A stretch of DNA of 64,000 bases. Source: Candidatus Thalassarchaeaceae archaeon (GTDB lineage: Archaea; Thermoplasmatota; Poseidoniia; Poseidoniales; Thalassarchaeaceae). The notes under the pieces are model-generated. The model saw only the letters and a list, made by a program, of their open reading frames with translations. It made no database searches and had not been told where the DNA came from. The position numbers were made by a program, and so were the translations under genes. The stretch lies in the NCBI GenBank assembly GCA_030748775.1, contig JASMLH010000004.1, forward strand, positions 27,234-91,233. The letters run 5' to 3'. Of this stretch, positions 15,024-55,922 are shown piece by piece (position 1 is the first letter of the stretch; the number at the start of each line of letters is the position of its first letter).

Positions 15024-15042
15024 GTGTTCTCACAACCTATTT

Positions 15043-37043: not shown

Positions 37044-37685
37044 CTATTCGTTCTCATTTTCCTCTTCTGAGCCGTCGTCGCTGCCCGAGTCGTCGTCGGT
37101 TTCCAGATTCTTCATCTCTTCAATAACGGCCTGCTTCTGCTCGCGGAAGGTCTCATGCTTGGACTGGATCTCCTTGCTTGCAGCGATTGCCCTGTCTATC
37201 ATGTCATGCCTTACCTTGATGGCCTCGCTTAGATCCTCGAACAGTTGCATGTGCTGCACGTACCAATCGTCCCGAGCGGATAACTCGGCTACTGCGGCCT
37301 TGTTCTCCTCATCGATCTCCTCTGCCACGGTAATGACTGAGCCGAGTCTGGCGGTCTCTCTGGAGAGCAGTTCCTTTGTCTTATCAAGCTCGTCCTCCAA
37401 GTAAGGGATCTTTGTATTGGCCTTGGCAAGCTGGACCTCCATGTCGTCCTTCTCCCTTCGGAGGTTGGAGAGAAGCGTCTCCTTACTCTCGACATCGACA
37501 ATACCGTCCCTGATCTCTCGATTCAGTGCCTCTATCCGAACCTTCAAATCTGAAATCTCGGTTTCCTGGCCCTGGTAGGCAAGTAGTAGCTTATCCAATG
37601 CGTCCTTGTCCTTTGCAGCCTGCTGCTCAAGCTGGTTAATGCGGTCCTGAGGATTTCCGCCGGTCGGGTCGTCTTGCCCCATCAT
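37044..37685 (-). CDS. hypothetical coiled-coil protein with acidic tail
   Basis: 213 aa with heptad-rich charged sequence and a C-terminal DDDSGSDDGSEEENENE. No family recognised. Confidence 0.55.
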   Translation of the reverse strand: MMGQDDPTGGNPQDRINQLEQQAAKDKDALDKLLLAYQGQETEISDLKVRIEALNREIRDGIVDVESKETLLSNLRREKDDMEVQLAKANTKIPYLEDELDKTKELLSRETARLGSVITVAEEIDEENKAAVAELSARDDWYVQHMQLFEDLSEAIKVRHDMIDRAIAASKEIQSKHETFREQKQAVIEEMKNLETDDDSGSDDGSEEENENE

Positions 37686-37751: not shown

Positions 37752-39170
37752 TCAGGAGTTTCCGGAAACTGCGGCGATTGTTGAGGATAACACAACAGTT
37801 AGCCTCTTTGAAGAAGGAATGTGGAGCTTCTCGTCGGGGCCGTGAGCGTTGTTCCCAGGACCGGAAGTTCCGGTACAAAGGAACATCGCATCGGGGTACT
37901 TTCGCTGCATCATTGCCATGAACGGTATCGTACCCCCTGTCCACGTAGCTAGAGGAGGGAGGCCTGTAAGTGACACTGAAGCTTCGTGAATCGCTTCGCG
38001 GACCTTGCCCTCCATAGGCGGGGCGTGGAATCCGTCTGCACAGGAGTCTGGAGTGAAGGATACCTCTGAGCCAAAGGGAGGGTCCTTCTCCAAAATCTCC
38101 TTGGCAATGGAGATCGCAGACTCTGAGTCAACACCTGGGGGAATTCTGAAACTGAGTTTCAGATCGGTATTGGTCCTCAGAACGTTGCCTGCAACCTGAA
38201 CAGCCGGAATTCCGTCTGCGCCGATTATCGAGAGGGTTGGCTCCCAGTTCATAGCCAAGATCATCTCCTCGGTGGAGTCTGCAACTCGCTCCAAGGAATC
38301 TACGGTAGGAAACTGCTCCCAGATGCTATCTCCCACAACTTCAGCTAGAGCAGTGGCCTTTTCGTGGACCTCCTGGTCAATCTCTACGTGCATCTCGGGA
38401 ATTAGGACCTTTCCAGTTGAAGAGTCCTCCACCCGGTCCAATAGTATCCTAATTATCCTAAATGAAGATGGTATCGAACCCCCCGAGTTGCCAGAATGTA
38501 TCCCCTCGTGAGAAACCTTGACCGACAGAGTCCCAGAAACAAGCCCCCTGAGTGCCTCGGTCATCCAAACGTGCTCGTAATCAGGTCCCCCGCTGTCCAA
38601 TACCACCACCATGTCTGGTTCGCCCATCTGCTCTGATAGCGCTTCCAAATACGGAGGCAAATCAAACGAGCCTGACTCCTCGCAGGTCTCAATCAGGAAG
38701 GTGCACTTGGGATGGGGGATTCCCTCCTCCTGAAGCAGGCGGACGGCTGTTGCGCAGAGATATCCCCCATATCCATCGTCTACTGAGCCCCTTCCGTATA
38801 GCCATGGATCCCTTCGCACTGCCTTTAGCGGATCCAGTCCTTCAGACCATAGCTCTGGCTTTGATGGCTGCTTGTCCAAGTGAGAGTAGAATATCACCTC
38901 CCCAGGTCCGGTTCCCTCTACGGTAACCAATAAGACAGGAGACTTGTCTTCAATCCTATGAGTCTGATAGCTCATCCCAGATATTCCTTGATCGTCGAGC
39001 CAACGACAAAACAGTTCAATGGTCTCATCGAGCTCACCCAGTTCGGCCCAATGTGGCTCAAAGAGTGGCGATAGGGCCTTGATTCCTATGAAATCGGAAA
39101 GGCTGGGTAGGATCGAGTTCTCCCAAATCTCGTCGCTTCTGCTCATCATCGATTCCAAGTCTGGCTGCAT
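37752..39170 (-). CDS. M20-family metallopeptidase (dipeptidase/ArgE-DapE-like)
   Basis: YSHLDKQP, GRGSVDDGYG and ETCEESGS metal-ligand motifs. 472 aa. Confidence 0.85.
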   Translation of the reverse strand: MQPDLESMMSRSDEIWENSILPSLSDFIGIKALSPLFEPHWAELGELDETIELFCRWLDDQGISGMSYQTHRIEDKSPVLLVTVEGTGPGEVIFYSHLDKQPSKPELWSEGLDPLKAVRRDPWLYGRGSVDDGYGGYLCATAVRLLQEEGIPHPKCTFLIETCEESGSFDLPPYLEALSEQMGEPDMVVVLDSGGPDYEHVWMTEALRGLVSGTLSVKVSHEGIHSGNSGGSIPSSFRIIRILLDRVEDSSTGKVLIPEMHVEIDQEVHEKATALAEVVGDSIWEQFPTVDSLERVADSTEEMILAMNWEPTLSIIGADGIPAVQVAGNVLRTNTDLKLSFRIPPGVDSESAISIAKEILEKDPPFGSEVSFTPDSCADGFHAPPMEGKVREAIHEASVSLTGLPPLATWTGGTIPFMAMMQRKYPDAMFLCTGTSGPGNNAHGPDEKLHIPSSKRLTVVLSSTIAAVSGNS

Positions 39171-39217: not shown

Positions 39218-42200
39218 TCACTCAGCGGGCCCGCATATTGGCTTCATGCCACTATGAAATGGGCATGATTCGCAAGCAGATGCGGCCTGACCAGACAACT
39301 GAGGGAATTCGGCGATAGGCAGTTGAGAGGAAAGAGCAATCTTAGCGGACCTGGCAAGAAGTGTATGAAGATCGGAGATTGACTCCTGGAGCATTTCTCT
39401 GGGATATTCGACCAACCTTCCAGTAGCTCCCACAAGTATAGCCGGTGAAAGTACATCCCTGTGAGGTATTCCGCGGTCCATCTTTTCTGCCTCCGTGCGA
39501 GATAGCGCTAGGTGGTATAGGGCAAGTTGTAGTCTGTGCTTCCTGAGCATCCTTTCCTCTGCCTCGCACATTGGGCCTGCTTCCGTACATCCCAAAGCGT
39601 CGAGCAAGCCCGTTCTTTCGCGTTCGGAAAGCCTGTCTGCTCCTTCTGTCTTCAAATCTACTGGCCTGATATTGGATTCTCCAGATGAGGTACTTGTACA
39701 AAGGACCAAGTCAATGACTCCACTCATCTCGATGACCGATGAGTCCATTGTGGCAAGAGTCTCGTACCCATCGGGGGTCCACCTGCTCCTCTCGATTTCG
39801 TCAAAATTGACTGGAACTTGGATATTGAATGGCATTTCTGTTCTCAGTCCATCCAGTGAGTGCTCGTCGACTTCCCTTCCTGCAACGAGTTCGCCTATCT
39901 TTCCCCCTCCTATCCTTTCGGCCATTTCTCGCGCTACTCTCGCAACCTCAGAAGAATTAGCAGAGGGAGGGAGCATCTCCTCGAAAACAGTGGCATGAAG
40001 GCTCTCATCCGATAGCAAATCTGGACTGGACTTGGTCCATGAAGGAGGTAGCGGATGGGTCTTTGCTCCTTCACCGGGTCCTGGGTTACCTATTCCAATC
40101 TCCACTATCCTGTGGAAGATGGTTCCGAAGGTGGCCGAATCCAGGTTCATGGGATTTGAGTAGCTGGACCCTGCAGAAGCGTGTGGTAGCACTGGTTCTG
40201 GGTCAATTCCGCCACGGGTCTCCAGCCATTGCCTCCTTGCACAATCCTGGAACACTGGGAGTTGGCTTGGTTTGATACTAACTCTGGTGATTCGCTCATT
40301 TCTCACTGATGGTGCCTCCGTTCCACTCAAATCTGGCTGATAGCGGGAGAACTTGTCGATATCCTCGATTCTTTGTAGAGGTGTCTTAATTTTCTGGTGC
40401 TCATTTTCTTCCTTCAAGAAGCAAGAGGGTTCGTGCATAACTAGCATTCCTCCATGATTTCCTTCATTGCCGAGGTAGGCCCGGTCCAGCATCAAACCGG
40501 GGTCAATGATTAGTGAGCCAGAAGTCGGTGTGCCCTCCGATGTACTCAGAGTAGAACCACTGTTCCATGGAGAGGCTTGCTCTTCCCTCCTTATGGAACC
40601 CTGTCTTAGCGACTCTGCCCACATCTGTCCGAGCTGGGGTATCGACGTGTCATATGTCCATGGAAGCCGAATGCCCTCGCCTTCAACCCACTCGGATCCC
40701 CTAGGCGATCCGGCGATGATCAATTTCTCCTCCGCCCTGGTGGCGGCCACGTATAGCAGTCTCCTCGCCTCTGCGCTCTTCCTTGCCCTATGAAGAATTG
40801 AGACGTGCTCCCAGATTGTTGAACGGGCGTAGGTACCATCCGAAGGCCATGGGTTCGGATGTCCAGCGAAAAGTTCCGGGCTGACAATTAACCTACTGTT
40901 CTGCTCATTCCTCATGTTTGTCTGTCGGTTTGAGAAAATATCCGCAATGATTACAACACGTGCTTCCAATCCCTTCGAACTGTGAATTGTCATAACTCGG
41001 ACAGCATCGCTGGGAGGGGTTGTCTCTGCCACCAGTGGGGTCTCGCTCCTCTCCCGGAGTTCCCTTATCCTGTCGGCTAGAACGATTGGGTCGCCTCCTA
41101 CTTCCAAAGAAATCCTACGGACCATTTCGACAAATTGCTCTGAGTCTTGCCTGGATACCTCGTCCGGGTAGGTTACGAGCAGGTCTGATCTGTCGATTGT
41201 CTCCTCGAGTATCTCTACCAGGTTAGAAGAGTTGGACAAATGGTACCATCTCTTTGCGAGTGACCTCTGGCGTTCTGACAGGCCTTTTTCCGACAGTTGG
41301 AGCAATAGGTTTGTCCCCTTCTTTGATGATTCTAGGAAGTCTTGTAGTTGTCCATCGTCCATGCCAATTAGGCACGAGCGTGCGACCCATGCTGCATTGT
41401 GCCTCGATGTAGGCCTTGCAACTAGTTGCAACAGTCCCTCAAGAGCACTGGATGTGGGCCTATCTAGGATATCTCCCTCTATGTCGACCTGGGTAGGCAC
41501 CCCCATATCGTGCAGGTGCCTGACGATGATGTCCCTAATTTTCACCCTGTTAGGAAGAAGGATCAAGATTTCGCTGGGTTTGATTGGCTCCTGTTCTGCT
41601 GAGTGACGCCAGTCTCCGTTTGATGAAAGTGCTCGTACCGAGGTTCCCTCCAGTAGGCTCTTGACCCTCAAAGCAATCAGCATTGCCTGCCTCTCCAGAC
41701 GATCTTTCTCACCAGGTCCGAATGGATCCAGGTGAGTTCCCAAGTCAATTGGTGGATTGTCACCTTCGGGGGTGTCGATGGGGCAAATCCACTCAACTGA
41801 GCCAGGATTTCCACGTTTGTCAGGAGATGGGAATAGCGTCTGAGGCGAGGCGTAGAAGTCCCCGTTTCTCAGGAGGTGGTGCCTGTCGGAGAATACGTCC
41901 TCCCACCACTCGTTCATTATCCCAAGAAGGCCTCCCTCGGTCCGGTAGTTTACCTGAAGGGAAATCAGTCCTTCTTTTCTATCCCTTACCTCTGCTCTTC
42001 CTGGTGCGGGAAGTTCCCTATCGGTGGAGTCGAATGGAATCCAAGAGACGAGATCGCGGCCTCCCTTTTCCATGTGTTCAGATGCCTTGGCGATTGAGAT
42101 CGAGTGGTCATTCCTTGGATCTCTGCTATGGGATTCTCTTCTAAGGGCAGGATGTCTTGTCAGCTCATCAACACTGTTGAGCTCATGTGTGTTTATTCTT

Positions 42201-44149
42201 CTCAGCGTCTGTGCGAACTCAACGAAACCGGTAACCTCGGCCTGCCTGAAGGCGTAAATGCTCTGCTTTACGTCCCCCACATAGCATACTGTCGGCTGCC
42301 AGGGAGTATCAGGAACGGGGGGCTCTTCCTCGCCAATCTCTCTTGGACCCCATAGACGTGAGAGAATTCTCCACTGTAGAGGCGAGTTGTCTTGGGCTTC
42401 GTCGATAATGAATGCCCTGTACCTACGTCTAATTTCACGTAGAAGTTTGTATCTTCCTTCAAGGTCCGATCTAATTGCCCCCAGCAATGATGCCGAGGCT
42501 CCAGAAGATGCGGGGTCTCCTTCCAGAATCGTCAGGGCCTCGAAGGCCCTGGAAATGTGGTCGTCCCTCCAAGGCCTCTCCCCCAAAGAATCCAAGGCAA
42601 CCTGAATTGAAGGATGATAGAACGGTCTGCATGTTTCTGGGCAATTCGTCAGAAGCAGGTCGCCAGCCAATTTCTGCACATCGTCGAAGTCGTGGACCTC
42701 TTCTCGTTCCTTGAGTCGCTTCAGGATTCCCTGGAATCCTAGGTGCAATAGGTGAAGGTCACCTAGGTTCCTGACCTCTGCTTCTAGGGTGAAGTGGTAT
42801 TTCCCCCTTGGATTATCTAGCCTTTCTGGAAGGAAAAGCGGGAGTGGGGAGCTTGGTGGCTCCCAGTCGTCTGATACCCCTGGGGGTTTCGAGTTTTCTA
42901 GAGTGATTGCGGCACGAACGAAGTGCAGTAGTATCCTATCAGTCTCTCCGGACCAAATTTCACCAAATGATGAGATTTGCTCCTTTAGAAGCATTAGGAA
43001 GTTCTCCTTGGTGTTCTTGTCTGAAATCTTTGAGTAACTCTCGACACCTGGGGCCCAGTCGTCGGAGGGGAATTGGTTTCGGGGGAAGAATGTCATTTTC
43101 TTGCTCATCAGAGTCGATTTTGAGACTGTACACACCAATACTTGTCCCATCCATCGGAGCTTGCCCCACAATTCCACCGGTGGACCGCTTCTGTCTAACT
43201 CGTCCAAGCAGGACATTCTGGAGATCGCTGGCCATCCAACTGAAGAAGGAGACTGGATGTGATCCTTGAAAATCTGGCAAATATTGGATACGATACTATG
43301 CAATATTTCGGCCTGCTTCTTGACCTGCTGCTCATCTGCTGATTCCAATATCTTAGTCATCAATAGATCGGGATCTACAGTCCCATCTTCCTTCATTATC
43401 TTCCGAGCTGCCTCATCGATGAACACCGACTTCGAAGCAAGTCCTCGAAGAACCCTAGAAGCGGCTCGACTTCCGGAGTAGCTTCGTGAAACTCTATCTC
43501 TTGCTGATAGCACATCGGCGACAATTTGCGCCGGAATTCCGGCGTCTACTGCATCTCCAATTCTTGATTTGGCGCTGGGAAGTCTCCAAAGTGTCCTGAG
43601 GGCAGAGTCGACTAGTATATTCCTGCCAGCATCAGTTACATTTTCCCTGCTCAGAGCATCGCCGAGTTTTCCTCGGAAAGGAGAAACCAGTTGGCTCAAG
43701 AATGAGTCAATGGTTCCAATTGGCGCATCCTCCAATAGGGTGAGGAGTTGTTCTATGAATCCCTGATTCCTGATCCTTGGATCTGTCCTATTTCTCCCAT
43801 TATCCCCTATTGGTCCTGGTTTCAATCGAGAAATTTCCTTACGGAGTCGGTCCCTCATCTCATCTGCAGCTCTGTTGGTAAACGTCAGGAGTACAACCTC
43901 TCCCGGAAGTAATCCCCCCCATTCTCGAAGGTCTATCCTTTCAGATGGAGGAGATGAAATCGTCCCAGATCTTAGTTTGGCTGGACGGGTTGGTTTTGGA
44001 AGAAGCCTAGTAGCTCTCTGGTCTTCTGAAAGATAGTGCTCAATCACCCGATCTACAATGGTGCTGGTTTTTCCTGTTCCTGCTCCAGCATCGATTACGA
44101 TATGTGAATCTAGATTCAGAGCCAATCGCTGAGCAGTGTTCAGTCTCAT
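39218..44149 (-). CDS. addA: AddA/RecB-like SF1 (UvrD-type) helicase fused to a RecB-family nuclease, 1643 aa
   Basis: Motif I DAGAGTGKTS, Ia LLTFTNRAADEM, II FIIDEAQDNS, III VGDVKQSIYAFRQA, IV QVNYRT, V IHSSKGLEARVV, VI LLYVAATRAEEKLII. Nuclease motifs GVIDLVLC...VDLKTEG...LQLALYHL, plus Cys 1303 and CESCPFHSGMKPIC. Confidence 0.8.
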   Translation of the reverse strand: MRLNTAQRLALNLDSHIVIDAGAGTGKTSTIVDRVIEHYLSEDQRATRLLPKPTRPAKLRSGTISSPPSERIDLREWGGLLPGEVVLLTFTNRAADEMRDRLRKEISRLKPGPIGDNGRNRTDPRIRNQGFIEQLLTLLEDAPIGTIDSFLSQLVSPFRGKLGDALSRENVTDAGRNILVDSALRTLWRLPSAKSRIGDAVDAGIPAQIVADVLSARDRVSRSYSGSRAASRVLRGLASKSVFIDEAARKIMKEDGTVDPDLLMTKILESADEQQVKKQAEILHSIVSNICQIFKDHIQSPSSVGWPAISRMSCLDELDRSGPPVELWGKLRWMGQVLVCTVSKSTLMSKKMTFFPRNQFPSDDWAPGVESYSKISDKNTKENFLMLLKEQISSFGEIWSGETDRILLHFVRAAITLENSKPPGVSDDWEPPSSPLPLFLPERLDNPRGKYHFTLEAEVRNLGDLHLLHLGFQGILKRLKEREEVHDFDDVQKLAGDLLLTNCPETCRPFYHPSIQVALDSLGERPWRDDHISRAFEALTILEGDPASSGASASLLGAIRSDLEGRYKLLREIRRRYRAFIIDEAQDNSPLQWRILSRLWGPREIGEEEPPVPDTPWQPTVCYVGDVKQSIYAFRQAEVTGFVEFAQTLRRINTHELNSVDELTRHPALRRESHSRDPRNDHSISIAKASEHMEKGGRDLVSWIPFDSTDRELPAPGRAEVRDRKEGLISLQVNYRTEGGLLGIMNEWWEDVFSDRHHLLRNGDFYASPQTLFPSPDKRGNPGSVEWICPIDTPEGDNPPIDLGTHLDPFGPGEKDRLERQAMLIALRVKSLLEGTSVRALSSNGDWRHSAEQEPIKPSEILILLPNRVKIRDIIVRHLHDMGVPTQVDIEGDILDRPTSSALEGLLQLVARPTSRHNAAWVARSCLIGMDDGQLQDFLESSKKGTNLLLQLSEKGLSERQRSLAKRWYHLSNSSNLVEILEETIDRSDLLVTYPDEVSRQDSEQFVEMVRRISLEVGGDPIVLADRIRELRERSETPLVAETTPPSDAVRVMTIHSSKGLEARVVIIADIFSNRQTNMRNEQNSRLIVSPELFAGHPNPWPSDGTYARSTIWEHVSILHRARKSAEARRLLYVAATRAEEKLIIAGSPRGSEWVEGEGIRLPWTYDTSIPQLGQMWAESLRQGSIRREEQASPWNSGSTLSTSEGTPTSGSLIIDPGLMLDRAYLGNEGNHGGMLVMHEPSCFLKEENEHQKIKTPLQRIEDIDKFSRYQPDLSGTEAPSVRNERITRVSIKPSQLPVFQDCARRQWLETRGGIDPEPVLPHASAGSSYSNPMNLDSATFGTIFHRIVEIGIGNPGPGEGAKTHPLPPSWTKSSPDLLSDESLHATVFEEMLPPSANSSEVARVAREMAERIGGGKIGELVAGREVDEHSLDGLRTEMPFNIQVPVNFDEIERSRWTPDGYETLATMDSSVIEMSGVIDLVLCTSTSSGESNIRPVDLKTEGADRLSERERTGLLDALGCTEAGPMCEAEERMLRKHRLQLALYHLALSRTEAEKMDRGIPHRDVLSPAILVGATGRLVEYPREMLQESISDLHTLLARSAKIALSSQLPIAEFPQLSGQAASACESCPFHSGMKPICGPAE

Positions 44150-47100
44150 CTGAAGTCACCCTCTTCCATGACATGGCAAGTCTTGCTAACCGAACAGTAC
44201 TGACAGACACCGGGAGAGGGAGTTGGGTGAACTCTGCCAGTGGATGCTTGTGCTGCGACCCTCAGTGCAACGGAAATTCGATGGGCCATCCAGGCTCTGA
44301 AGTGGTCACTTGTGGAAGGTGGTTTTTCGTCCGAGAACCTATAGAGTCTTGAGGTGATGGAAGTCCTAGTTCCAAGACGGAGCTGCGGTAGGCTCTCGGA
44401 GTAGTTGGATGATATCTCCAAGCGGTGCTCAGAATTATGACCGAAGAGGGAAATCCCCGCCGCTAAAACTAGATCACCTGGATGAGAAACCTCCCAAGCC
44501 CTGGCATAAATGGCAAGTTGGAGTTCCTCGAGCAGTCCCTTGAGGTGCCTCCTCGATGAAGACCCGGTGTCAGTGGTCTTCAAGTCCCTGATAGCAATAA
44601 TTCGCCTTGGTTTCCAGTCTGAGCCTTGCAGCCTAATCGGGGCAACACTGAGGTCTCCTTCTTCATCTAGCCAATTCTGGGCCAGGTCATCGAACGGAAG
44701 TAGGTCAACCCTATCTATGAAACCCCGGATCTTGATTGGTGGGATTTTTTCGCCGCTAGTGAACTCCGGAGAGAGGGAGATTTCCACCCCATCTTCATGG
44801 AAGTTATCGGTACTCCACTCTAGTGAGATTGGTGAGGAGTCAGCACATGACGATTCGGATGAGACAATCGTGCCTATCCGACCAGATACAGGTAGCTGAG
44901 TCGGTTCGGCCAGCCAACCCCCCCACTGCTTGAGATTCATCCCCGTCAGCGAACGAAGACTGTGAGTTGCCACAGCATCTGTACGCTCCAGCCAGGGAGC
45001 CCTAGAGTCTAGTGACTCAAACGCTAATTGCATTAATTCGCCCTCGCTGATTCCAGATCGAGAGATGCTGGGTATTTTCTCAACTCCCGATATATCCCTC
45101 TCATCCCCCATGGGGATTCCCAGTACTCGTGATAGGATGTCATGATGGACTAGATGGAGTAGATTGCCCTGTGTTCTGCTATCAATTTCCTCTCCAATCA
45201 ACTCCTCGTTATCTACCATCAGGCCTCTGGATAGCCAGCCACTTCTAGGGCACTCTAGCCACTTCTGGAGTCTGGTTGGCGACCAGACGCGAACGTCCTG
45301 CTCGGCTCCTTCTGAATGTCCATGCCTGGAGTCACTGACCAATGACCCAGTGGGAGCAGGCGAGAATGGCCTCGGGTCTATGGTTGGGGAATGCTTGCCT
45401 GAATCATTGACCCCACCTATTACCGGCCATCTTGGATTATTTCTTGGATGGGCCACGCCCTCGGGAGTTCTTGCATTGAGGCTGGACCTCTCGAACGAGA
45501 GGACATGGGGTGAAGCCGAAGAGGGAAGGTACCCATCATCCTCCGATCTGAAGGGTTGTCGTCTTTGGCGGTCCACTTGCATCTCGAAGTCTAGACCTAT
45601 CGACACTGCACTAGGATTGATTGGAGGCCTTGAAGGAGGCTGATTATTCCTAATCTGGTTCCCGTCGAACTGGCGAAAGTCCCTGGGAGCTGCCAGTTGC
45701 CCCTCAGTCGGGTTGATCTCTGACTTGGTTCCATCTGGGTCAAAGGCCCCCGCCCACTCTCTGATGGGAGCGGCCGGGGGACGGGTTTCGTCTAGAGTCG
45801 GATCTAGGACGATGACCTCAGCTGCCGAATTTAGCAGATGCTTGAGATGGTGCCGTGCATCTCGAATAGGACCATCTGGCCTCAGGATGTCCATTGAGTT
45901 CCGCTCTTCATCTCCAATGAAGGGAAACTTGGGGACCCTGAGGTTCCATGATGAAGAAGATAAGTTGCATAGAATGGTGATATCGGAGTTACAACCGAGC
46001 GCCTCGCTAGGCCCCATCAAGCGTACTCTGCCAGTTGCCCCGGTTGCGTTTCCCCTTATGGAGGACTCGAGGCAGAGGGAAGTGAATTCTGCAACCCAAT
46101 CTTGCCCGCCTGCTGGAGCCTTCTGTCCTGTGTGTTCCTGCATCTCCCTAAGACTTGAATGACCTCTCCAAATTGTCTGAATTACTGAGGCTGGAGAGGT
46201 AGATTCACCATCGAGATTTTCCATTGCAGAGGAAATATCGAATGAAGATAGTGTGTTCAGAAGCCATTCGTCCCCATCATGCGGTGGCTCTGGTAATGGT
46301 AGCCTATTTCCAGTTACGCAGCCAACGGAAACCGAGTCTTCTTCCAGTGCCTTTCTGTCTTCTGGCCGCAATAGAGGCTTTAGCGAGTTGGCGATGCAAA
46401 GCAACCACCATTGAGTGCATTCTTTTGCTAAGGCGTTCTTTTCCTCTGAAGGGGGTCTCGACATTGTCGAAAGCCATCTGGAAAGAGCCCCGGGGCCACC
46501 GAGAACGTGTTCTTCCCTTGCAAGGTTAGTCAGTAGTTCTGAATCTGCCATGGGACTCAGAGAACTGTCTGATGGGTGCTCGGAGATGAGTTCGAAAGGT
46601 GAAATGGCTTGCTGAAGAGAAAGTGCCCTCAGGGACTCAAGTGAGAAAGAGTCGGGCCCATAGGGGAGATTTGCTAGGAAGAGTGTCCAATGGGCATAAC
46701 TGTCAGAGGTAAGGTTTCTTCTTGACCGATTGATAAGAATTCCAAGCTCGGAAAGCAATCTTTCCCACTTAATTCTATTTTCTTCGATTGCCGGATCGAC
46801 TATCATCACTGTAGCATTGGGTTTGTCGAGTAGCCGTTCTTGAGTTAGCCTGATTGCAGTTTCGAAGGAATGCTTCTCTCTCCGGAGAAGGATCCTCCTT
46901 ACATTCGAGCCATTATGTTCATTCCCCCTTTCCGAACGGACTATCCATTCCGGGAGTTCTTCGGGATTGGTAATTGGGTACTCGTCTACCAAAAGGTGGC
47001 CATGATGGCCAAGACGGAAACTTCCTGGATAAGACAGTTGATGGATTGGTCTAAGTCGGGAAATCTGCAATAGCATCTCAGAGTAGGATTTGCACATTCC

Positions 47101-47721
47101 AGGAGCGTGATCCAATAGGACAATACCATCTATGTCTGATATGCTGAAAGGCTCCTTTCCCCCCTTTAGCTCGTTAATTATCCTAGGCACGACCCTGTCT
47201 GGATGGGTTCCTCCGAGCTTTCTCTCAAGTCTGAGGATTATTCTTCTGAAAGTGGGCATTCCCGGGCCTTCCCAACTCTCGAGTGCTAGTTCCCTAGAGA
47301 GTATAGCATGAAGATCTGCCAAGGCACGGGTCTTTCCCATTCCCCAATTCATCTCAGGAAGAGGGTTGATCATCGGGAATCCCAGATTTGCCGATTCCCT
47401 GCTACACTCCGTATGGAGAATAATCTCATATGCGCCATCATTGGGAATTACCCTAGGTAGCCTGAAATCGGCCAATAAGGAGGCTGTTAGTGAGTCGAGC
47501 GTATGGTGAAGGGTCGTGTCTATAGCCCCACTAAGGCCCAGTTCGGACAATGTCTCTCTGCGGGATCCCTCGTTTGGATAAATCACCATTATTCTCCCTG
47601 GAGAGCCTGTCACAGGACCGCTGGGGTTCAGCGCTTGTGTCCGAATGTGCTCATGCAACCACCTCGGCAGTCGCCCTGGGTTGGTTTCCTCATTGCTTAC
47701 AGAATATACCACGGACCCCAC
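44146..47721 (-). CDS. addB: AddB-like subunit: degenerate helicase-like scaffold plus C-terminal Fe-S-type PD-(D/E)XK nuclease, 1191 aa
   Basis: No canonical Walker A. The C-terminus has LECPRSGW (Cys824), GFIDRVDLL, IRDLKT, LQLAIYARAW and CQYCSVSKTC. Its stop overlaps the addA-like start (ATGA). The gene order is addB then addA. Confidence 0.7.
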   Translation of the reverse strand: MGSVVYSVSNEETNPGRLPRWLHEHIRTQALNPSGPVTGSPGRIMVIYPNEGSRRETLSELGLSGAIDTTLHHTLDSLTASLLADFRLPRVIPNDGAYEIILHTECSRESANLGFPMINPLPEMNWGMGKTRALADLHAILSRELALESWEGPGMPTFRRIILRLERKLGGTHPDRVVPRIINELKGGKEPFSISDIDGIVLLDHAPGMCKSYSEMLLQISRLRPIHQLSYPGSFRLGHHGHLLVDEYPITNPEELPEWIVRSERGNEHNGSNVRRILLRREKHSFETAIRLTQERLLDKPNATVMIVDPAIEENRIKWERLLSELGILINRSRRNLTSDSYAHWTLFLANLPYGPDSFSLESLRALSLQQAISPFELISEHPSDSSLSPMADSELLTNLAREEHVLGGPGALSRWLSTMSRPPSEEKNALAKECTQWWLLCIANSLKPLLRPEDRKALEEDSVSVGCVTGNRLPLPEPPHDGDEWLLNTLSSFDISSAMENLDGESTSPASVIQTIWRGHSSLREMQEHTGQKAPAGGQDWVAEFTSLCLESSIRGNATGATGRVRLMGPSEALGCNSDITILCNLSSSSWNLRVPKFPFIGDEERNSMDILRPDGPIRDARHHLKHLLNSAAEVIVLDPTLDETRPPAAPIREWAGAFDPDGTKSEINPTEGQLAAPRDFRQFDGNQIRNNQPPSRPPINPSAVSIGLDFEMQVDRQRRQPFRSEDDGYLPSSASPHVLSFERSSLNARTPEGVAHPRNNPRWPVIGGVNDSGKHSPTIDPRPFSPAPTGSLVSDSRHGHSEGAEQDVRVWSPTRLQKWLECPRSGWLSRGLMVDNEELIGEEIDSRTQGNLLHLVHHDILSRVLGIPMGDERDISGVEKIPSISRSGISEGELMQLAFESLDSRAPWLERTDAVATHSLRSLTGMNLKQWGGWLAEPTQLPVSGRIGTIVSSESSCADSSPISLEWSTDNFHEDGVEISLSPEFTSGEKIPPIKIRGFIDRVDLLPFDDLAQNWLDEEGDLSVAPIRLQGSDWKPRRIIAIRDLKTTDTGSSSRRHLKGLLEELQLAIYARAWEVSHPGDLVLAAGISLFGHNSEHRLEISSNYSESLPQLRLGTRTSITSRLYRFSDEKPPSTSDHFRAWMAHRISVALRVAAQASTGRVHPTPSPGVCQYCSVSKTCHVMEEGDFR

Positions 47722-47790: not shown

Positions 47791-48714
47791 TCAACAAGAA
47801 GAGGCATGGCGGCGAGGCACCAATGCAGCTAGCATGCACAGCAATGTAGAGACCCCTGGTGCTGGAAGAGCGTCCCACATGCCTGACTCGGCATCTATGA
47901 TCTCCCAGTCTATTACGAGGACGGCGGACATGTCTTCTCCTTCCCAAGGATCTGGAGCTTGGATTTCCAAGGAGTTCCCCTCTAACGGGAGAAGAACTGC
48001 CTCGTGCAAGACGTGCCCATAGTTTTCAACTCCGTTAGACCCCTCAGGATAGTGGGCGTTGTCCTCAACAAAGAGGATCCATGCCTCGAATCTCTCCTCT
48101 CCGGAATGGAAGTGCTCTCCAAGATCGAAATCCCAATGGAAATTGAGTGCATTTCCCGATGCTTCCACACCAAGGGTTAGTTCCCCCGAACCATCGAATG
48201 GGTGGCTTGATCCAAATGCAATAGAGGTGGAGTAGTCTGTTTGTAGGCTGTCCGACTTGGGATTGGTACCCATATACATCCTCTCTCCGTCAAAAACAGT
48301 CGCTGGCGCTAGGCGAGATAGTCCTCCTATGTTGGTTGAAGCTGTCCCATAGCTAGACTCCCATCTCTCCTCGGTTGAGTTGCTTCCGAATGGGTCCATT
48401 GTCTCGAACTTGTGCCTGTGATAGTGGATCCGTGTAATATCATCGTCACCTATGGCCTCGTCCAGTGCTGACTCAGAGGTTATGCAGTTCATGCACCATG
48501 TTGCTGTATAGACTTCTACCACTCCTGGAAGATCATCGATTCCGCTGGAAATCGATGTATTCGTCATATTCTCTGAAAGATGAATGGAAATACCCCCAAT
48601 AGTGCCCCCGTTCACTCCCACCCTAGCATCATCCCACAGGGTTTCGCTAGTAGCTGAGGCTTGCATAGGAAGAAGCAAGAGCAACGTGATTGCCAGCGCC
48701 CCAACAGCCCTCAT
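47791..48714 (-). CDS. secreted thioredoxin-fold (DUF1223-like) protein with a PGF-CTERM-like tail
   Basis: Signal peptide MRAVGALAITLLLLLPMQASA. VVEVYTATWCMNC...IHYHRH resembles DUF1223. The C-terminal LPAPGVSTLLCMLAALVPRRH is a hydrophobic segment followed by basic residues. Confidence 0.55.
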   Translation of the reverse strand: MRAVGALAITLLLLLPMQASATSETLWDDARVGVNGGTIGGISIHLSENMTNTSISSGIDDLPGVVEVYTATWCMNCITSESALDEAIGDDDITRIHYHRHKFETMDPFGSNSTEERWESSYGTASTNIGGLSRLAPATVFDGERMYMGTNPKSDSLQTDYSTSIAFGSSHPFDGSGELTLGVEASGNALNFHWDFDLGEHFHSGEERFEAWILFVEDNAHYPEGSNGVENYGHVLHEAVLLPLEGNSLEIQAPDPWEGEDMSAVLVIDWEIIDAESGMWDALPAPGVSTLLCMLAALVPRRHASSC

Positions 48715-49842: not shown

Positions 49843-52800
49843 TCAAGTCTTCTTCCTGATGTCCTCTGCATACATGTACGACCTATCTTTGGTTCGTCCC
49901 TTGCCCTTTCTGGAATTGGAGATGTATAGGACGGCCATGGTCCCAAGTACCACTGCGGGAATGCCAAACATCAGTATAGACATCCATAGGGGCCTCTCGA
50001 TCTTGCTGCACCCTATCTGCCCGCTCATCTCTTGCTCATACCCTGATTGGCACTTTGTCTGCTTTGTGGAACCGGCCTCGTCAACGAAGTAACCCGGTTC
50101 TGCGTTCTTGCACCAGGACATTCCAGATTCGGGTTGGAAAGTGCCGGGCTGGCACGGTGTCTGGGCGGGAGATCCTGATTGCCCGACGAAGTTTCCGGCA
50201 GTTGCGTCTATGCACCCTTCACTGCCTGAATCGGGTTGGTAGGTCCCGACACCGCATGTGCTTTGGGAAAGGGCCCCCTCCTCTGGGACATGGTGCCCAG
50301 GCATAGCATCTGAACAGCTTGTCTGTCCTTCCGAAGACTGGAATGTCCCCTTGGAGCATGCTGTCTGGCTGGAGGAGCCAGAGGAAGCCACGAAGTTACC
50401 TGGGCTAGCTTCCAAGCACGCTGTCTGTCCTGAATCTGGCTGGTAGTTTCCAGTCTCACATGGAGTCTGCTCTGAAGACCCTGGCTCGCTAACGAAGTGC
50501 CCGGGTGATGCTTCTATGCAAGAAGGCTGACCTCCTGGTTGGTACTTCCCTGCAGGGCATGGTGATGTAGAGGAGCCATCAGCGCTGACCACCTGTCCCT
50601 CTGGGGCCTGCTCGCATCCAGCAGAGCCCGTATCAGACTGGTATTCTCCGGTTGGGCAGGGCATCTGACCTGTTGCGCCATCCAATTCAACGAAGTTACC
50701 CGGTTCGGCCGGAGTGCACTCATCCTGTCCTGGTTCCGAGGTGAATGACCCGGCTGAGCATGGGATCTGACCAGTCGATCCGGGCAACGAAGAGAAGCTC
50801 CCTGGATCAGCAGCTATGCAGGATGTCTGCCCGGACTCGGGTTGGAATGTACCTGGCTCGCATGGGTTCTGATTGGCAGATGCCTCTGAATCGGTATAGT
50901 GTCCGGCTTGGACGATGAGACAGGAGGTCTGTCCAGATTCTCCTTGGTATTCCCCTGGCAGGCAGGGAGACTGGGAAGTCATCATGGGCTCAGAAACGTA
51001 GTATCCTGGAGAAGCATCGCTACACAGCGGCTGTCCGGATGAAGATGAGTAAGTCCCTGATTCGCATGGCACCTGAGAGGTTGATGCAGCGGATGGGGCC
51101 TGGTATCCCGGGCTTGCGTTGAAGCACGAGGTCATCCCAGATAGCATCTGGTAGGTTCCTGGAGTACAGGGGGAATGGTGGTGCGCCCCGACTGTCGACA
51201 CGAAATGGCCAGGGGAAGCCTGCATGCAGTCGATGGCTCCACTTTCATTCTGATAGTAGCCTATCGAGCACTGGACTTGCTGGGCTGCCGCCTCCAATGA
51301 GGTATAGTTACCCGGAGATGTGGAAATGCAGGAGCTCTGTCCTTGGTTGGGCTGGTAGGTCCCTGGTAAACAAGGAGTAGGACTAACCGAGCCAGTCTGG
51401 TTCACGTAATAGCCGGGCGAAGAGGGGATGCAATCCGATTGGTTCGAAGAGCCCGACGATGGTTGGAATGTTCCTATGCTACAGGGGTACTGCAAGTATG
51501 GGAAGACTCCGTCTGCGTACCATCCTGGAACGGCATCTTCGCAAATCCCGTCAGAAGCGTAAGTCCCGGCAGGGCATCCTTCTGGGAACGGGTCGAAGAG
51601 GAATGGGATGCCATCACCGTCGCTGTCCCTCTCTGTCATGTGGGCGTGGCTGCCATTGCCCAGGTCAACGTACGCCGGGACGTTGCTGTCCACCCCCTCG
51701 CCTAGGCCTAGTGAGCCCTCTTCGTGGGCCCCCCAGCAGTATACTGACGCGTTGGCCGCAACCGCGCAGGTGTGGTAGCTGCCCGCCGAAATCTCGCCCA
51801 CTCCGAGTCCTGCTGGCATTGATACGACGACGGGGGTTGTACTGTTGTCGGTAGTGCCATCGCCGAGTTGCCCGTAGTCATTCCTACCCCAGCAAAGCGC
51901 GCTACTGTCATCCAATATAGCGCAGGTATGGCCGATGCCCACGTCAATCGAGATCGCGGTCCTTCCCGCGGGTAGAGATGTAGCCCTTGGGTATGTTGAC
52001 GAGTTCTCGGAGCCATCGCCGAATCGTCCGTGGGTGTTGTCGCCCCAGCAGTAGACCAAGCCGTCGTCTAGGATCCCGCAGGTGTGTCCGTAGCCAATAT
52101 CCATCGCAACTAGAGAACGGTTTGCTGGGAGCACCGAAATAGGCGTTGGGGAGTTCCTGTCGTTGTAGGCACCGTCGCCTAGGTGGCCGTGGATGTTCTG
52201 GCCCCAGCACATCCCGCTGCCGTTGTCCAGGATGACGCAGGTCGCATTCCCACCAGCGTTGACGGAAACAGGTGTTCGTCCGGAAGGGAGTAAGATTTGT
52301 GTTGGGGCGACCCGGCGAGAGTTATCCCCAGTTCCTAGCTGACCGTATCCGTTGTCCCCCCAGCAGTAGAGGGTGGAGTCGTCAGCGATTCCGCATGTGT
52401 GGTGAAAGCCGGTAACAATGGTCACCATGGACGCACTCACTACAGCAGGGCCATGGGGCTGATTGCAAGCTCCGCCGCAACTAATGTGGTTGTGTCCTAT
52501 AGGACCGTTTGTGTCTACACCCCAGCATTTTACGGAGCCGTTTGTAAGGGCACAGGTGTGTTCGCCATCGGGGCTTATCTCCGTCACGTCCTCTAGGCAG
52601 CAATCGGTTGAGTCGCGCTGGTTGACGCTCACTGGGGTGTGTTCGGGTGCCCATGGGCCTTGCGAATTCCCCAAGTATCCCGTTCCCCAGCACCGAACCT
52701 GATTAATGTCCGTCACAACGCAAGTGTAGTTGTATGATGCCCCCAATGCGGTGTGAGAGTATATTGACCCGACGGTTGAGCCTGGTAAGCTGAGTCCAGA

Positions 52801-54374: not shown

Positions 54375-55922
<1,548 letters not shown>

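What the first reader, a model, noticed from the sequence alone, without database searches (positions are those of the whole stretch)
39218..47721. Bacterial-type AddB/AddA helicase-nuclease pair inside an archaeal informational-gene backbone
Two giant ORFs are translationally coupled by an ATGA overlap at 44146-44149 and lie in the addB-then-addA order. The downstream 1643-aa protein shows a full SF1/UvrD motif set, read directly from the translation: DAGAGTGKTS, LLTFTNRAADEM, FIIDEAQDNS, VGDVKQSIYAFRQA, QVNYRT, IHSSKGLEARVV and LLYVAATRAEEKLII. These are followed by a RecB-family nuclease (GVIDLVLC, VDLKTEG, LQLALYHL). The upstream 1191-aa protein has no canonical Walker A. It ends in an AddB-style nuclease (LECPRSGW, GFIDRVDLL, IRDLKT, LQLAIYARAW, CQYCSVSKTC). 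The surrounding genes (MCM, GatE, Pus10, Rpo4, eL21, P0/P1, Pth2) are clearly archaeal. Archaeal DNA-end resection is classically attributed to Mre11-Rad50-HerA-NurA, whereas AddAB/RecBCD is regarded as a bacterial machine. This pair is therefore either a horizontally acquired repair complex or a repurposed DNA-degrading system, for example against viral DNA. The AddA-like subunit is also roughly a third longer than the ~1200 aa I recall for characterised AddA/RecB.
Basis: partly seen in the sequence, partly recalled or inferred. Interest (0 to 1): 0.75.

Follow-up and report, generated by a model that had tools for sequence, protein, structure and literature searches.

The report
Archaeal AddAB-like DNA-end helicase-nuclease pair
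Two very large overlapping genes in this Marine Group II archaeon encode a divergent version of the bacterial AddAB machine that chews back broken DNA ends, and the pair is a conserved core feature of this abundant ocean lineage, not a recent import or an assembly error.

Summary
Two minus-strand ORFs (47721..44146, 1191 aa; 44149..39218, 1643 aa) overlap by ATGA, and every quoted motif is present.

The downstream protein is a complete UvrD-type helicase plus a PD-(D/E)XK nuclease. Its best solved relative is B. subtilis AddA. The upstream protein matches only a C-terminal nuclease by sequence, but its predicted fold matches AddB best (Foldseek E 2e-15), then AdnA and RecC.

The pair is neither chimeric nor recently acquired:
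- 207 species-level genomes encode it, and the best 80 are all Marine Group II.
- addB-addA adjacency holds in 80/80 of those.
- Composition matches the rest of the window.
- A 71%-GC archaeal contig with only 27-28% identity keeps the overlap and all key residues.

No bacterial donor is detectable. A profile search of 1.84 billion proteins found only 260 family members.

It differs from canonical AddAB in four ways:
- Both nuclease domains carry a four-cysteine "iron-staple" signature.
- The AddB-like subunit has no Walker A.
- Both proteins score far below the NCBIfam AddA/AddB cut-offs.
- The AddA-like subunit carries about 410 extra residues.

The most likely function is DNA-end resection feeding RadA. 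Public records give the genes only generic names. Whether it replaces HerA-NurA could not be tested.

The parts
44146..47721 (-). AddB-like gene (1191 aa, GTG start; the true start may lie a few codons downstream). The protein has an inactivated helicase-like N-terminal region and an iron-staple PD-(D/E)XK nuclease at the C-terminus.
   Evidence: ORF; translation; PDDEXK_1 at E 2.4e-12. The AF2 model's best Foldseek match is AddB 4cei_B at E 2e-15. 152+ full-length homologues at 47-99% identity.
45622..47721 (-). AddB-like residues ~1-700: a UvrD/Rep-like four-subdomain fold with no helicase motifs. The P-loop position reads YPNEGSRRE.
   Evidence: Foldseek alignments to AddB, AdnA and RecC over the full length, and to UvrD/Rep over ~700 columns at E ~1e-5. 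No Walker A in 25/25 family members or in L081. No Pfam or PDB sequence hit.
45304..45627 (-). AddB-like residues ~699-806: a low-confidence, probably flexible linker between the helicase-like region and the nuclease.
   Evidence: pLDDT below 50 over residues 699-806.
44149..45294 (-). AddB-like nuclease domain (residues ~810-1191). Catalytic residues are D1002, D1045-x-K1047 and Q1067-xxx-Y1071. The four cysteines are C823 ... C1172-xx-C1175-x5-C1181.
   Evidence: All of these residues are invariant in 25 homologues and conserved in the 27%-identical L081 protein. The cysteine spacing matches the AddB iron staple described in PMC3321194 and PMC3378879.
44146..44149 (-). ATGA overlap of the AddB-like stop codon with the AddA-like start codon (translational coupling).
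   Evidence: Sequence read. The same ATGA junction is present in the distant locus L081. addB-addA adjacency in 80/80 genomes.
39218..44149 (-). AddA-like gene (1643 aa): an SF1A UvrD-type helicase followed by an iron-staple PD-(D/E)XK nuclease.
   Evidence: UvrD-helicase 1e-30, UvrD_C 2e-12, PDDEXK_1 4e-10. Best PDB relative is AddA 3u44_A, at 6.8e-10 with the single sequence and 1.2e-20 with the profile. 470+ homologues.
40691..44149 (-). AddA-like helicase region (residues 1-1153). It contains Walker A AGAGTGKT (21-28), motif Ia, DEAQD (583-587), motif III (624-637), and motifs IV, V and VI. Compared with B. subtilis AddA it has insertions in the 1A loop, in 1B (about +164 aa) and after motif III (about +82 aa).
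   Evidence: Motifs are invariant in 25 homologues and conserved in L081. Positions were mapped against AddA 3u44_A.
39221..40282 (-). AddA-like nuclease domain (residues ~1290-1643). Catalytic residues are D1480, D1498-x-K1500 and Q1541-xxx-Y1545. The cysteines are C1303 ... C1626-xx-C1629-x9-C1639.
   Evidence: Invariance, and compensating relocation of the fourth cysteine in 5/25 sequences. hhalign to the AddB-like nuclease gives probability 94.6% with motifs in register. AF2 pLDDT 78. Foldseek top hits are AdnA, Dna2 and Cas4-family ACE1, ahead of AddA and RecB.
37752..39170 (-). M20-family peptidase gene immediately downstream on the same strand. It is a conserved neighbour and is not shown to be functionally linked.
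   Evidence: Peptidase_M20 at 4.6e-20. Present next to addA in 72/80 MGII loci and in the distant L081.
47791..48714 (-). Conserved upstream gene (307 aa). It looks like a secreted or anchored protein with a CxxC motif. It is context only and is not considered part of the system.
   Evidence: Translation shows a signal-peptide-like N-terminus, TWCMNC, and a hydrophobic C-terminus. No Pfam or PADLOC hit. Present in 74/80 loci.

Best explanation
The two genes encode a lineage-specific AddAB-type, single-motor, dual-nuclease complex that is a core, vertically inherited component of Marine Group II (Poseidoniales) archaea and at least one more distant high-GC archaeal relative.

Proposed mechanism, by homology with B. 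subtilis AddAB:
- The translationally coupled subunits form a heterodimer that binds a double-stranded DNA end.
- The AddA-like SF1A motor translocates 3'->5' and unwinds the duplex.
- The AddA-like nuclease cuts the 3' strand and the AddB-like nuclease cuts the 5' strand.
- The AddB-like N-terminal region, a helicase fold stripped of ATPase motifs, acts as a passive scaffold and ssDNA-scanning channel, possibly recognising a Chi-like sequence.
- The product is a 3' single-stranded tail for the archaeal recombinase RadA. Linear foreign DNA would be degraded as a side effect.

Both nuclease domains are held together by a four-cysteine, presumably [4Fe-4S], iron staple.

Shown here: the gene structure and coupling, the domain content, the intact catalytic and ATPase residues, the AddB-like fold, the cysteine signatures, the phyletic distribution and the synteny.

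Inferred: complex formation, strand assignment, the Fe-S cluster itself, Chi-like control, hand-off to RadA, and an ultimately bacterial origin.
For: Anatomy:
- ORFs and ATGA overlap.
- The AddA-like protein has UvrD-helicase, UvrD_C and PDDEXK_1 domains. Its top NCBIfam hits are addA_alphas, recB and addA_Gpos. Its best PDB relative is AddA.
- The AddB-like model matches AddB chains first (E 2e-15 to 4e-13), then AdnA (9e-9), then RecC (8e-7).

Active sites under selection:
- Walker A, DEAQD and both D / DxK / QxxxY sets are invariant in 25+25 homologues.
- The same residues are kept at 27-28% identity in L081.

Iron staples:
- AddB-like C823 / C1172 / C1175 / C1181 are invariant with AddB spacing.
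- AddA-like C1303 / C1626 / C1629 are 25/25. The fourth ligand is either C1639 or a compensating cysteine elsewhere.
- The two nuclease domains align profile-to-profile.
- The AddA-like nuclease model hits the Fe-S nucleases AdnA, Dna2 and Cas4-family ACE1 first.

Core-gene status:
- 207 GTDB species genomes encode the pair, and the best 80 are all MGII.
- addB-addA adjacency is 80/80, with conserved housekeeping neighbours.
- Both Poseidoniaceae and Thalassarchaeaceae are represented.
- A syntenic copy sits on a 3.0-Mb 71%-GC archaeal contig.
- Tetranucleotide correlation with the rest of the window is r=0.96.
Against: - No biochemical or genetic data exist; MGII archaea are uncultured.
- Both proteins score far below the curated AddA/AddB equivalog cut-offs.
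- The AddB-like profile finds no canonical AddB at E<=1e-3 among 1.84 billion representatives and nothing in PDB by sequence. The AddB assignment therefore rests on a moderate-confidence model (pLDDT 67, pTM 0.39; TM-score ~0.33) plus the nuclease and cysteine signature.
- The AddB-like subunit lacks the Walker A that B. subtilis AddB uses to stabilise Chi complexes.
- Heterodimer formation was not modelled.
- Archaea use RadA, and no AddAB-RadA hand-off is known.
- I could not check whether these genomes keep Mre11-Rad50-HerA-NurA, so the physiological niche of the complex is open.
Confidence: 0.68

Rival explanations
1. The pair is primarily an innate defence nuclease. On this view it is a UvrD-Cas4-type helicase-nuclease with an accessory nuclease whose main job is to destroy linear viral or plasmid DNA, not to repair the chromosome.
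For: UvrD fused to a Cas4-like Fe-S nuclease is the architecture that PMC5704561 links to defence contexts. The AddA-like nuclease is Cas4/Dna2/AdnA-like. The AddA-like protein hits GajB (Gabija helicase) models in PADLOC at up to 5e-18. RecBCD and AddAB are themselves known to degrade foreign DNA (PMC6452273).
Against: The GajB hits cover only the generic UvrD core and are much weaker than the AddA/RecB hits (63 bits against 127-129). There is no GajA, restriction-modification, Dcm/Vsr or other defence gene within +/-10 kb. The AddB-like protein has no PADLOC hit. The pair is a fixed, syntenic core gene among housekeeping genes in 80/80 genomes, unlike patchy defence islands. No copies are found in viral contigs.
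Confidence: 0.12
2. The two proteins are independent enzymes that merely share an operon. The AddA-like protein would be a stand-alone helicase-nuclease, for example for fork processing or flap removal as with Dna2. The AddB-like protein would be a separate structure-specific nuclease.
For: The AddB-like profile does not detect canonical AddB by sequence. The AddB-like model is of only moderate quality. The heterodimer was not modelled. The AddA-like protein alone already has a motor and a nuclease.
Against: The ATGA translational coupling is conserved even at 27% identity. Strict adjacency holds in 80/80 genomes. The best full-length fold match of the upstream protein is specifically the AddB chain of the AddAB complex, followed by its functional equivalents AdnA and RecC. 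An inactivated helicase fold has no obvious role outside such a complex.
Confidence: 0.1
3. It is an AdnAB-type dual-motor, dual-nuclease enzyme, or a RecBCD-type enzyme, and not an AddAB-type one.
For: AdnA is the second-best fold match for the AddB-like protein and the best for the AddA-like nuclease. RecC is the third-best match for the AddB-like protein. The absence of a Walker A in the AddB-like protein resembles RecC.
Against: AdnA keeps Walker A and B (PMC3321194), whereas the AddB-like family has neither. RecC has no active nuclease, and RecBCD needs RecD. Here the AddB-like nuclease motifs are invariant, and no RecD-like gene is adjacent.
Confidence: 0.05
4. It is an assembly or binning artefact: a bacterial segment wrongly joined to an archaeal contig.
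For: None beyond the bacterial flavour of the domains.
Against: GC content and tetranucleotide profile match the window (r=0.96). The same gene order appears in 80 independent MGII genomes, including single-cell genomes and a 1.6-Mb contig. No bacterial near-relatives exist.
Confidence: 0.01

Closest known systems
Bacillus subtilis AddAB (PDB 3U44, 4CEI; PMC3321194)
   Same: - Gene order is addB then addA.
- One active SF1A UvrD-like motor (AddA) carries a C-terminal RecB-family nuclease.
- The partner has a helicase fold lacking the helicase motifs and a C-terminal nuclease stapled by C...CxxCx5C.
- It gives the best sequence match for the AddA-like protein and the best fold match for the AddB-like protein.
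   Different: - The AddB-like subunit has lost even the Walker A that B. subtilis AddB keeps.
- The AddA-like nuclease carries its own four-cysteine staple. As far as I know, canonical AddA does not, and PMC3378879 places the Fe-S nuclease in AddB.
- The AddA-like protein is about 411 aa longer, through several insertions.
- Sequence scores are far below the equivalog cut-offs.
- The host is an archaeon whose recombinase is RadA.
Mycobacterial AdnAB (PDB 6PPJ, 6PPR, 9NP6)
   Same: It is a heterodimer of two helicase-fold plus nuclease subunits, and AdnA carries an Fe-S nuclease subdomain. AdnA is the top fold match of the AddA-like nuclease and the second-best match of the AddB-like protein.
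   Different: AdnA retains Walker A/B motifs (PMC3321194), whereas the AddB-like protein here has none. The Fe-S signature here is on both subunits.
E. coli RecBCD
   Same: RecB is a UvrD-type motor plus nuclease and scores like AddA against the AddA-like protein (127 bits). RecC is an inactivated helicase with no nucleotide site, as the AddB-like N-terminus is here.
   Different: No RecD-like gene is present. RecC has no active nuclease, while the AddB-like nuclease is intact. RecBCD has no Fe-S cluster.
UvrD-Cas4-like fusion helicase-nucleases of bacteria and mesophilic archaea (Hudaiberdiev et al. 2017, PMC5704561)
   Same: A UvrD-like SF1 helicase is fused to a pfam12705 Cas4-like, four-cysteine nuclease, and the family is reported in mesophilic archaea.
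   Different: Those proteins are described as stand-alone or next to type III restriction-modification or Dcm/Vsr genes. Here there is an obligatory AddB-like partner and a housekeeping context. A phylogenetic relationship was not tested.
Archaeal Mre11-Rad50 / HerA-NurA end-resection system
   Same: The presumed task is the same: 5' strand resection at DNA ends to feed RadA (PMC3326311).
   Different: The proteins and architecture are unrelated: a hexameric HerA translocase plus a NurA dimer. Whether MGII genomes also encode that system could not be checked here.

Membership tests
AddAB-type helicase-nuclease (architecture as defined by the B. subtilis structure, PMC3321194) | AddA subunit: a complete SF1A UvrD-like helicase motif set | tested here: met
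   UvrD-helicase at 1e-30 and UvrD_C at 2e-12. Motifs I, Ia, II, III, IV, V and VI are invariant in 25 homologues and align to AddA 3u44_A.
AddAB-type helicase-nuclease (architecture as defined by the B. subtilis structure, PMC3321194) | AddA subunit: a C-terminal RecB-family nuclease with catalytic D, D/ExK and QxxxY | tested here: met
   PDDEXK_1 at 4e-10. D1480, D1498/K1500 and Q1541/Y1545 are invariant. The fold matches the AddA and RecB nucleases at E 5e-5 to 6e-5.
AddAB-type helicase-nuclease (architecture as defined by the B. subtilis structure, PMC3321194) | AddB subunit: an N-terminal UvrD-like fold with inactivated helicase motifs | tested here: met
   Foldseek's best hits are AddB chains over 1226-1373 aligned columns at E 2e-15 to 4e-13. 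UvrD/Rep align over ~700 columns at E ~1e-5. The model is only moderate (pLDDT 67). No helicase motif is detectable.
AddAB-type helicase-nuclease (architecture as defined by the B. subtilis structure, PMC3321194) | AddB subunit: a retained Walker A nucleotide-binding site (a B. subtilis-type feature) | tested here: not met
   No [AG]xxxxGK[ST] in the N-terminal region of 25/25 homologues or of L081. The structurally equivalent strand-loop-helix reads YPNEGSRRE.
AddAB-type helicase-nuclease (architecture as defined by the B. subtilis structure, PMC3321194) | AddB subunit: a C-terminal nuclease with a four-cysteine iron staple, the first Cys ~300 aa before CxxCx5C | tested here: met
   C823 ... 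C1172-xx-C1175-x5-C1181 is invariant with a 349-aa gap, and the catalytic residues are invariant. The pattern is as described. The metal cluster itself cannot be tested with these tools.
AddAB-type helicase-nuclease (architecture as defined by the B. subtilis structure, PMC3321194) | Adjacent, co-transcribed addB-addA genes | tested here: met
   ATGA overlap. Adjacency in 80/80 genomes and in L081.
AddAB-type helicase-nuclease (architecture as defined by the B. subtilis structure, PMC3321194) | Heterodimer formation, dsDNA-end-dependent helicase-nuclease activity, and Chi regulation | not testable with these tools
NCBIfam AddA/AddB/RecB equivalogs (TIGR02784, TIGR02785, TIGR00609, TIGR02773, TIGR02786) | Whole-protein score at or above the curated cut-off | tested here: not met
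   AddA-like: 129 bits against 861, 118 against 708, and 127 against 696. AddB-like: addB_alphas matches only 5/25 members at E>=0.003, and addB_Gpos 2/25 at E>=0.034.
AdnAB (actinobacterial dual-motor helicase-nuclease) | Both subunits keep the Walker A/B ATPase motifs | tested here: not met
   The AddB-like family lacks them. The definition is taken from PMC3321194.
RecBCD | Three subunits including the SF1B RecD, with RecC lacking nuclease activity | tested here: not met
   No RecD-like gene is among the conserved neighbours. The AddB-like nuclease motifs are intact.
UvrD-Cas4-like defence-associated fusion (PMC5704561) | A UvrD helicase fused to a Cas4-like Fe-S nuclease | tested here: met
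   The AddA-like protein has this architecture.
UvrD-Cas4-like defence-associated fusion (PMC5704561) | Stand-alone, or next to type III restriction-modification or Dcm/Vsr genes; monophyletic helicase clade | tested here: not met
   The context is an AddB-like partner, an M20 peptidase and other housekeeping genes, with no restriction-modification or Dcm genes. Monophyly with that clade was not tested.
Gabija (GajA/GajB) | A GajB UvrD-like helicase encoded next to a GajA OLD-family ATPase-nuclease | tested here: not met
   Only generic GajB hits to the helicase core were found. There is no GajA hit among the neighbours or for the AddB-like protein.

The most novel reading that the evidence does not exclude
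In the most abundant planktonic archaea of the surface ocean, DNA-end resection for RadA-mediated recombination is carried out by an ancient, archaeal-specific AddAB lineage and not, or not only, by Mre11-Rad50-HerA-NurA. In this lineage both nucleases are Fe-S iron staples and the scanning subunit is nucleotide-free. That would imply an AddAB-to-RadA hand-off and possibly an archaeal Chi-like sequence, neither of which has been described.
Probability: 0.3. Interest if true: 0.75.

Novelty: new variant of a known kind. Interest (0 to 1): 0.58.

Why it matters
Textbook accounts give archaea the Mre11-Rad50-HerA-NurA resection machinery and reserve RecBCD, AddAB and AdnAB for bacteria. Transfer of addAB "even into the archaea" has only been suggested (PMC2887965, citing Cromie 2009).

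Here an AddAB-type pair is a fixed, syntenic, strongly conserved core component of a whole order of ecologically dominant archaea. It has diverged so far that public annotation names it only "UvrD-helicase domain-containing" and "PD-(D/E)XK nuclease family" protein.

If it functions as predicted:
- It offers a natural experiment in how an AddAB-type machine couples to a RadA/Rad51-type recombinase.
- It offers a variant in which both nucleases carry Fe-S staples, which is useful for asking what the cluster does.
- It gives a reason to look for Chi-like sequences in archaeal genomes.

It also flags a gap in automated annotation that affects hundreds of MAGs.

Tried and rejected
- **PDB sequence searches with the AddB-like protein.** Neither the single sequence nor the 25-sequence profile gave a meaningful hit. 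Only fold comparison identified AddB.
- **Bacterial donor or outgroup.** The exhaustive profile search returned only family members and fragments (260 hits). The most distant full-length hits were archaeal or frameshifted copies. Searching with the distant member P0276 returned only itself. No donor phylogeny could be built, because sequences of bacterial AddA, AddB, RecB and AdnB are not available to the scripting tool.
- **Defence hypothesis.** PADLOC gave only generic GajB helicase hits and nothing for the AddB-like protein or the upstream gene. A viral-contig scan found no relatives.
- **Third subunit.** The conserved upstream 307-aa gene looks like a secreted CxxC protein, and the downstream gene is an M20 peptidase. 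Neither suggests a nucleic-acid function, so I rejected both as subunits.
- **A second metal site in the AddA-like helicase region** (invariant C503, C507, C622, C789, C1243, C1484 within MGII). I rejected it as a family-wide feature because C503, C789, C1243 and C1484 are absent from the distant L081 protein. It remains possible within MGII.
- **Literature.** Seven full-text searches found no paper that mentions AddAB, RecB, Mre11, Rad50, HerA or NurA together with Marine Group II or Poseidoniales. Cromie 2009 is not held.
- **Mre11, Rad50, HerA and NurA in MGII genomes.** This was not possible.
- **Chi-like motif search.** Not attempted, because it needs closed genomes with known replication orientation.

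Full report
**1. The observation**

The window carries two long minus-strand ORFs: 47721..44146 (1191 aa, GTG start) and 44149..39218 (1643 aa, ATG start). The stop codon of the first overlaps the start codon of the second in the tetranucleotide ATGA at 44146-44149. The finding did not mention that the genes lie on the minus strand; otherwise it is accurate.

Pfam finds UvrD-helicase (1e-30), UvrD_C, UvrD_C_2, AAA_19 and a C-terminal PDDEXK_1 (4e-10) in the 1643-aa protein. In the 1191-aa protein it finds only a C-terminal PDDEXK_1 (2e-12). The neighbours I checked are plainly archaeal: MCM, GatE, ribosomal P0/L10 and L1, Spt5 and FtsZ.

**2. The organism and the artefact question**

The proteins have hundreds of full-length homologues at 45-99% identity. 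The ones that carry names come from Candidatus Thalassarchaeaceae, Poseidoniaceae, Poseidoniales and "Euryarchaeota/Thermoplasmatota archaeon" MAGs, that is, Marine Group II.

- A scan of one genome per GTDB species found 207 genomes encoding a relative of the upstream protein. The best 80 are all MGII.
- In all 80 the AddA-like gene follows the AddB-like gene directly.
- The wider order is largely conserved: beta-eliminating lyase, 307-aa protein, addB-like, addA-like, M20 peptidase, coiled-coil protein.
- GC content and tetranucleotide usage of the pair match the rest of the window (r = 0.96, the highest of any part of the window).

A chimeric or mis-binned bacterial insert, and a recent transfer, are therefore excluded.

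A much more distant copy sits on a 3.0-Mb, 71%-GC archaeal contig. There GatE is 50% identical and the AddA/AddB-like proteins only 27-28%. The local order is MCM, GatE ... Pth2 ... addB-like, addA-like, M20, and the ATGA overlap is the same. So the pair predates the MGII radiation.

**3. The downstream protein**

All seven SF1 motifs, including Walker A AGAGTGKT and DEAQD, are invariant across 25 diverse homologues and conserved in the distant copy.

- The best NCBIfam models are addA_alphas (129 bits), recB (127) and addA_Gpos (118). These are far below the equivalog cut-offs of about 700-860 bits.
- The best solved relative is B. subtilis AddA, at 6.8e-10 with the single sequence and 1.2e-20 with the family profile.
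- Mapping motif positions onto AddA shows where the ~411 extra residues lie: a loop between motifs I and Ia, domain 1B (about +164), the segment after motif III (about +82), and the linker plus nuclease region (about +146).

The nuclease catalytic residues (D1480, D1498-x-K1500, Q1541-xxx-Y1545) are invariant.

The first three are present in 25/25 sequences. The fourth is present in 20/25, and the five exceptions each have a compensating extra cysteine (CPRC at the first site, or CxCxxC at the last). The distant copy keeps all four. That relocation pattern is what a four-ligand metal site predicts.

An AF2 model of residues 1200-1643 (pLDDT 78, pTM 0.73) matches the Fe-S-bearing nucleases first: AdnA, Dna2 and Cas4-family ACE1 (2e-6 to 4e-5). 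The AddA and RecB nucleases follow (5e-5 to 6e-5). The margins are small, so the fold result is supportive and not decisive. The cysteine pattern is the stronger evidence.

**4. The upstream protein**

By sequence it is nearly an orphan. No PDB chain matches, even with a 25-sequence profile. A profile search that read all 1.84 billion cluster representatives found only 260 proteins at E <= 1e-3, all of them family members or fragments and none a canonical bacterial AddB.

Scanning 25 members against NCBIfam gives recurrent but very weak hits: Cas4 (15/25), TIGR03623 "probable DNA repair protein" (14/25), addB_alphas (5/25) and addB_Gpos (2/25). Against Pfam there are weak hits to Dna2 (3/25).

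The AF2 model is of moderate quality (pLDDT 67, pTM 0.39, with a disordered stretch at 699-806). Foldseek against the PDB is nevertheless clear.

- The five best hits are the B chains of the B. subtilis AddAB structures (E 2e-15 to 4e-13, aligned over the whole length).
- Next come AdnA (9e-9) and RecC (8e-7), the two proteins that occupy the AddB position in AdnAB and RecBCD.
- After those come UvrD and Rep over ~700 columns.

The C-terminal nuclease has invariant D1002, D1045-x-K1047 and Q1067-xxx-Y1071. It also has invariant C823 ... C1172-xx-C1175-x5-C1181. This is the arrangement described for the AddB iron staple: the first cysteine lies ~300 residues before the other three (PMC3321194, PMC3378879).

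There is no Walker A. The strand-loop-helix where it would sit reads YPNEGSRRE, and none of 25 homologues nor the distant copy has a P-loop there. In this respect the protein resembles RecC more than B. subtilis AddB, which keeps a nucleotide site that stabilises Chi complexes.

A profile-profile comparison aligns the nuclease domains of the two proteins with each other (probability 94.6%, E 7e-8). The first cysteine, the three catalytic motifs and the CxxC are all in register.

**5. How it most likely works**

The anatomy is that of a single-motor, dual-nuclease AddAB-type enzyme. It has one active 3'->5' SF1A motor, two intact PD-(D/E)XK nucleases, one inactivated helicase fold, and translational coupling of the two genes.

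By homology with AddAB (PMC3321194), I expect the following.
- A heterodimer binds dsDNA ends and unwinds with the AddA-like motor.
- It cuts the 3' strand in the AddA-like nuclease and the 5' strand in the AddB-like nuclease.
- It threads the 3' strand past the AddB-like dead helicase domain, which may scan for a regulatory sequence.
- In an archaeon the resulting 3' tail would be used by RadA.

What is shown: the domains, the motifs under purifying selection, the fold, the coupling, the distribution and the synteny.

What is inferred: complex formation, strand assignment, the Fe-S clusters themselves, any Chi-like control, and the link to RadA.

I put 0.68 on this reading.

**6. Rivals**

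*A primarily antiviral role (0.12).* It is suggested by the resemblance of the AddA-like protein to the defence-linked UvrD-Cas4 fusions (PMC5704561) and by generic GajB hits in PADLOC. Several results argue against it.
- Those hits cover only the UvrD core and are weaker than the AddA/RecB hits.
- No GajA, restriction-modification, Dcm or other defence gene is nearby.
- The AddB-like protein has no PADLOC hit.
- No viral contig encodes the family.
- The pair is a fixed core gene and not an island gene.

Degradation of linear foreign DNA would still be an expected side effect, as it is for RecBCD.

*Two independent enzymes (0.10).* This is hard to reconcile with the conserved ATGA coupling and with the specific match to the AddB chain.

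*AdnAB or RecBCD type (0.05).* This fails on the missing ATPase motifs, the intact second nuclease and the absence of a RecD-like gene.

*Assembly artefact (0.01).* Refuted, as set out in section 2.

**7. Comparison with what is known, and novelty**

The idea that addAB genes reached archaea is not new. PMC2887965 cites Cromie (2009) for transfer "even into the archaea". From memory, that paper reports archaeal addAB genes, but I could not read it. UvrD-Cas4-like fusions in mesophilic archaea have also been noted.

I found no paper in the held library that connects Marine Group II with AddAB or with any end-resection system. Public records name these proteins only "UvrD-helicase domain-containing protein", "PD-(D/E)XK nuclease family protein" or "hypothetical protein".

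The pair works like AddAB and shares its architecture. It fails the curated sequence thresholds for AddA and AddB, and it differs in defined ways:
- a second iron staple on the motor subunit;
- a nucleotide-free AddB-like subunit;
- an enlarged AddA-like subunit;
- distribution confined to archaea.

I therefore rate it a new variant of a known kind, not a new member of the named families and not something categorically new.

An ultimately bacterial origin is plausible on distribution grounds, since AddAB, RecBCD and AdnAB are overwhelmingly bacterial. No donor is detectable, and any transfer would be ancient.

**8. What remains open**

The question that would raise or lower the interest most is whether Poseidoniales also keep Mre11-Rad50-HerA-NurA. 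It could not be addressed with the capped tools. The donor phylogeny, the heterodimer model and the presence of the metal clusters are likewise untested. Section the next steps lists the analyses and the outcomes that would decide each point.

Noticed in passing
window 47791-48714 (-): A 307-aa protein with a signal-peptide-like N-terminus, a TWCMNC (CxxC) motif and a hydrophobic C-terminal anchor (…LPAPGVSTLLCMLAALVPRR). It has no Pfam or PADLOC hit, yet it sits directly upstream of the addB-like gene in 74/80 MGII genomes and, weakly recognisable, on the opposite strand in L081.
   Followed up: partly
window 37752-39170 (-): An M20-family peptidase gene follows the addA-like gene on the same strand after a 47-nt gap. 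It does so in 72/80 MGII genomes and also in the 27%-identical L081 locus. This adjacency persists over a depth at which most other synteny has decayed, and no functional link is apparent.
   Followed up: partly
window 37044-37685 (-): A 213-aa coiled-coil protein downstream of the M20 gene is conserved in 67/80 loci. It has only weak coiled-coil-type hits (CENP-F, ATG16; JetC/LmuB in PADLOC at E 2e-4 to 4e-3), most likely compositional.
   Followed up: no
window 39218-44149 (-), AddA-like residues 503, 507, 622, 789, 1243, 1484: Six further cysteines are invariant in 25 MGII homologues, including a C503-P-x-x-C507 pair in the 1B insertion. Several of them (503, 789, 1243, 1484) are absent from the distant L081 protein.
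   Followed up: partly
window 49843-52938 (-): A 1031-aa protein combines RCC1-like repeats (WD40_RLD at 1e-68) with three Ephrin_rec_like domains, an architecture with a eukaryotic flavour. The surrounding 48-56 kb stretch has higher GC (0.55) and the lowest tetranucleotide correlation with the rest of the window (r ~0.72).
   Followed up: no
L081 (ENA ERZ26167216 ctg495766, 3,002,195 bp), locus 10001-18168: A single 3.0-Mb, 71%-GC archaeal contig carries the most divergent copy of the pair (AddB-like 1164 aa, AddA-like 1558 aa). Synteny is conserved (MCM, GatE ... Pth2 ... addB, addA, M20). The organism could not be named, and its AddB-like protein has no other relative in the word-indexed 5.8-billion-protein search.
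   Followed up: partly
L008 and L046 (isolate Guaymas_23); L037 and L068 (isolate MAG_45): Two MAGs each contain two contigs with different copies of the pair (56% and 48%, and 49% and 45%, identity to the window's AddB-like protein). This is more likely two populations mixed in one bin than true paralogues.
   Followed up: no
L082 (ENA ERZ28548060 NODE_28, coverage 1.4x): A low-coverage contig carries the same locus with both genes broken into several ORFs (AddB-like 901 aa; AddA-like split into 875 + 270 + 198 aa). Sequencing frameshifts are the likely cause, not pseudogenisation.
   Followed up: no
window 54375-55922 (+) and 31232-32896 (-): Two sizeable ORFs (515 aa and 554 aa) have no Pfam match at E <= 1e-3. 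The 515-aa ORF is only partly conserved among the MGII loci (23/80).
   Followed up: no
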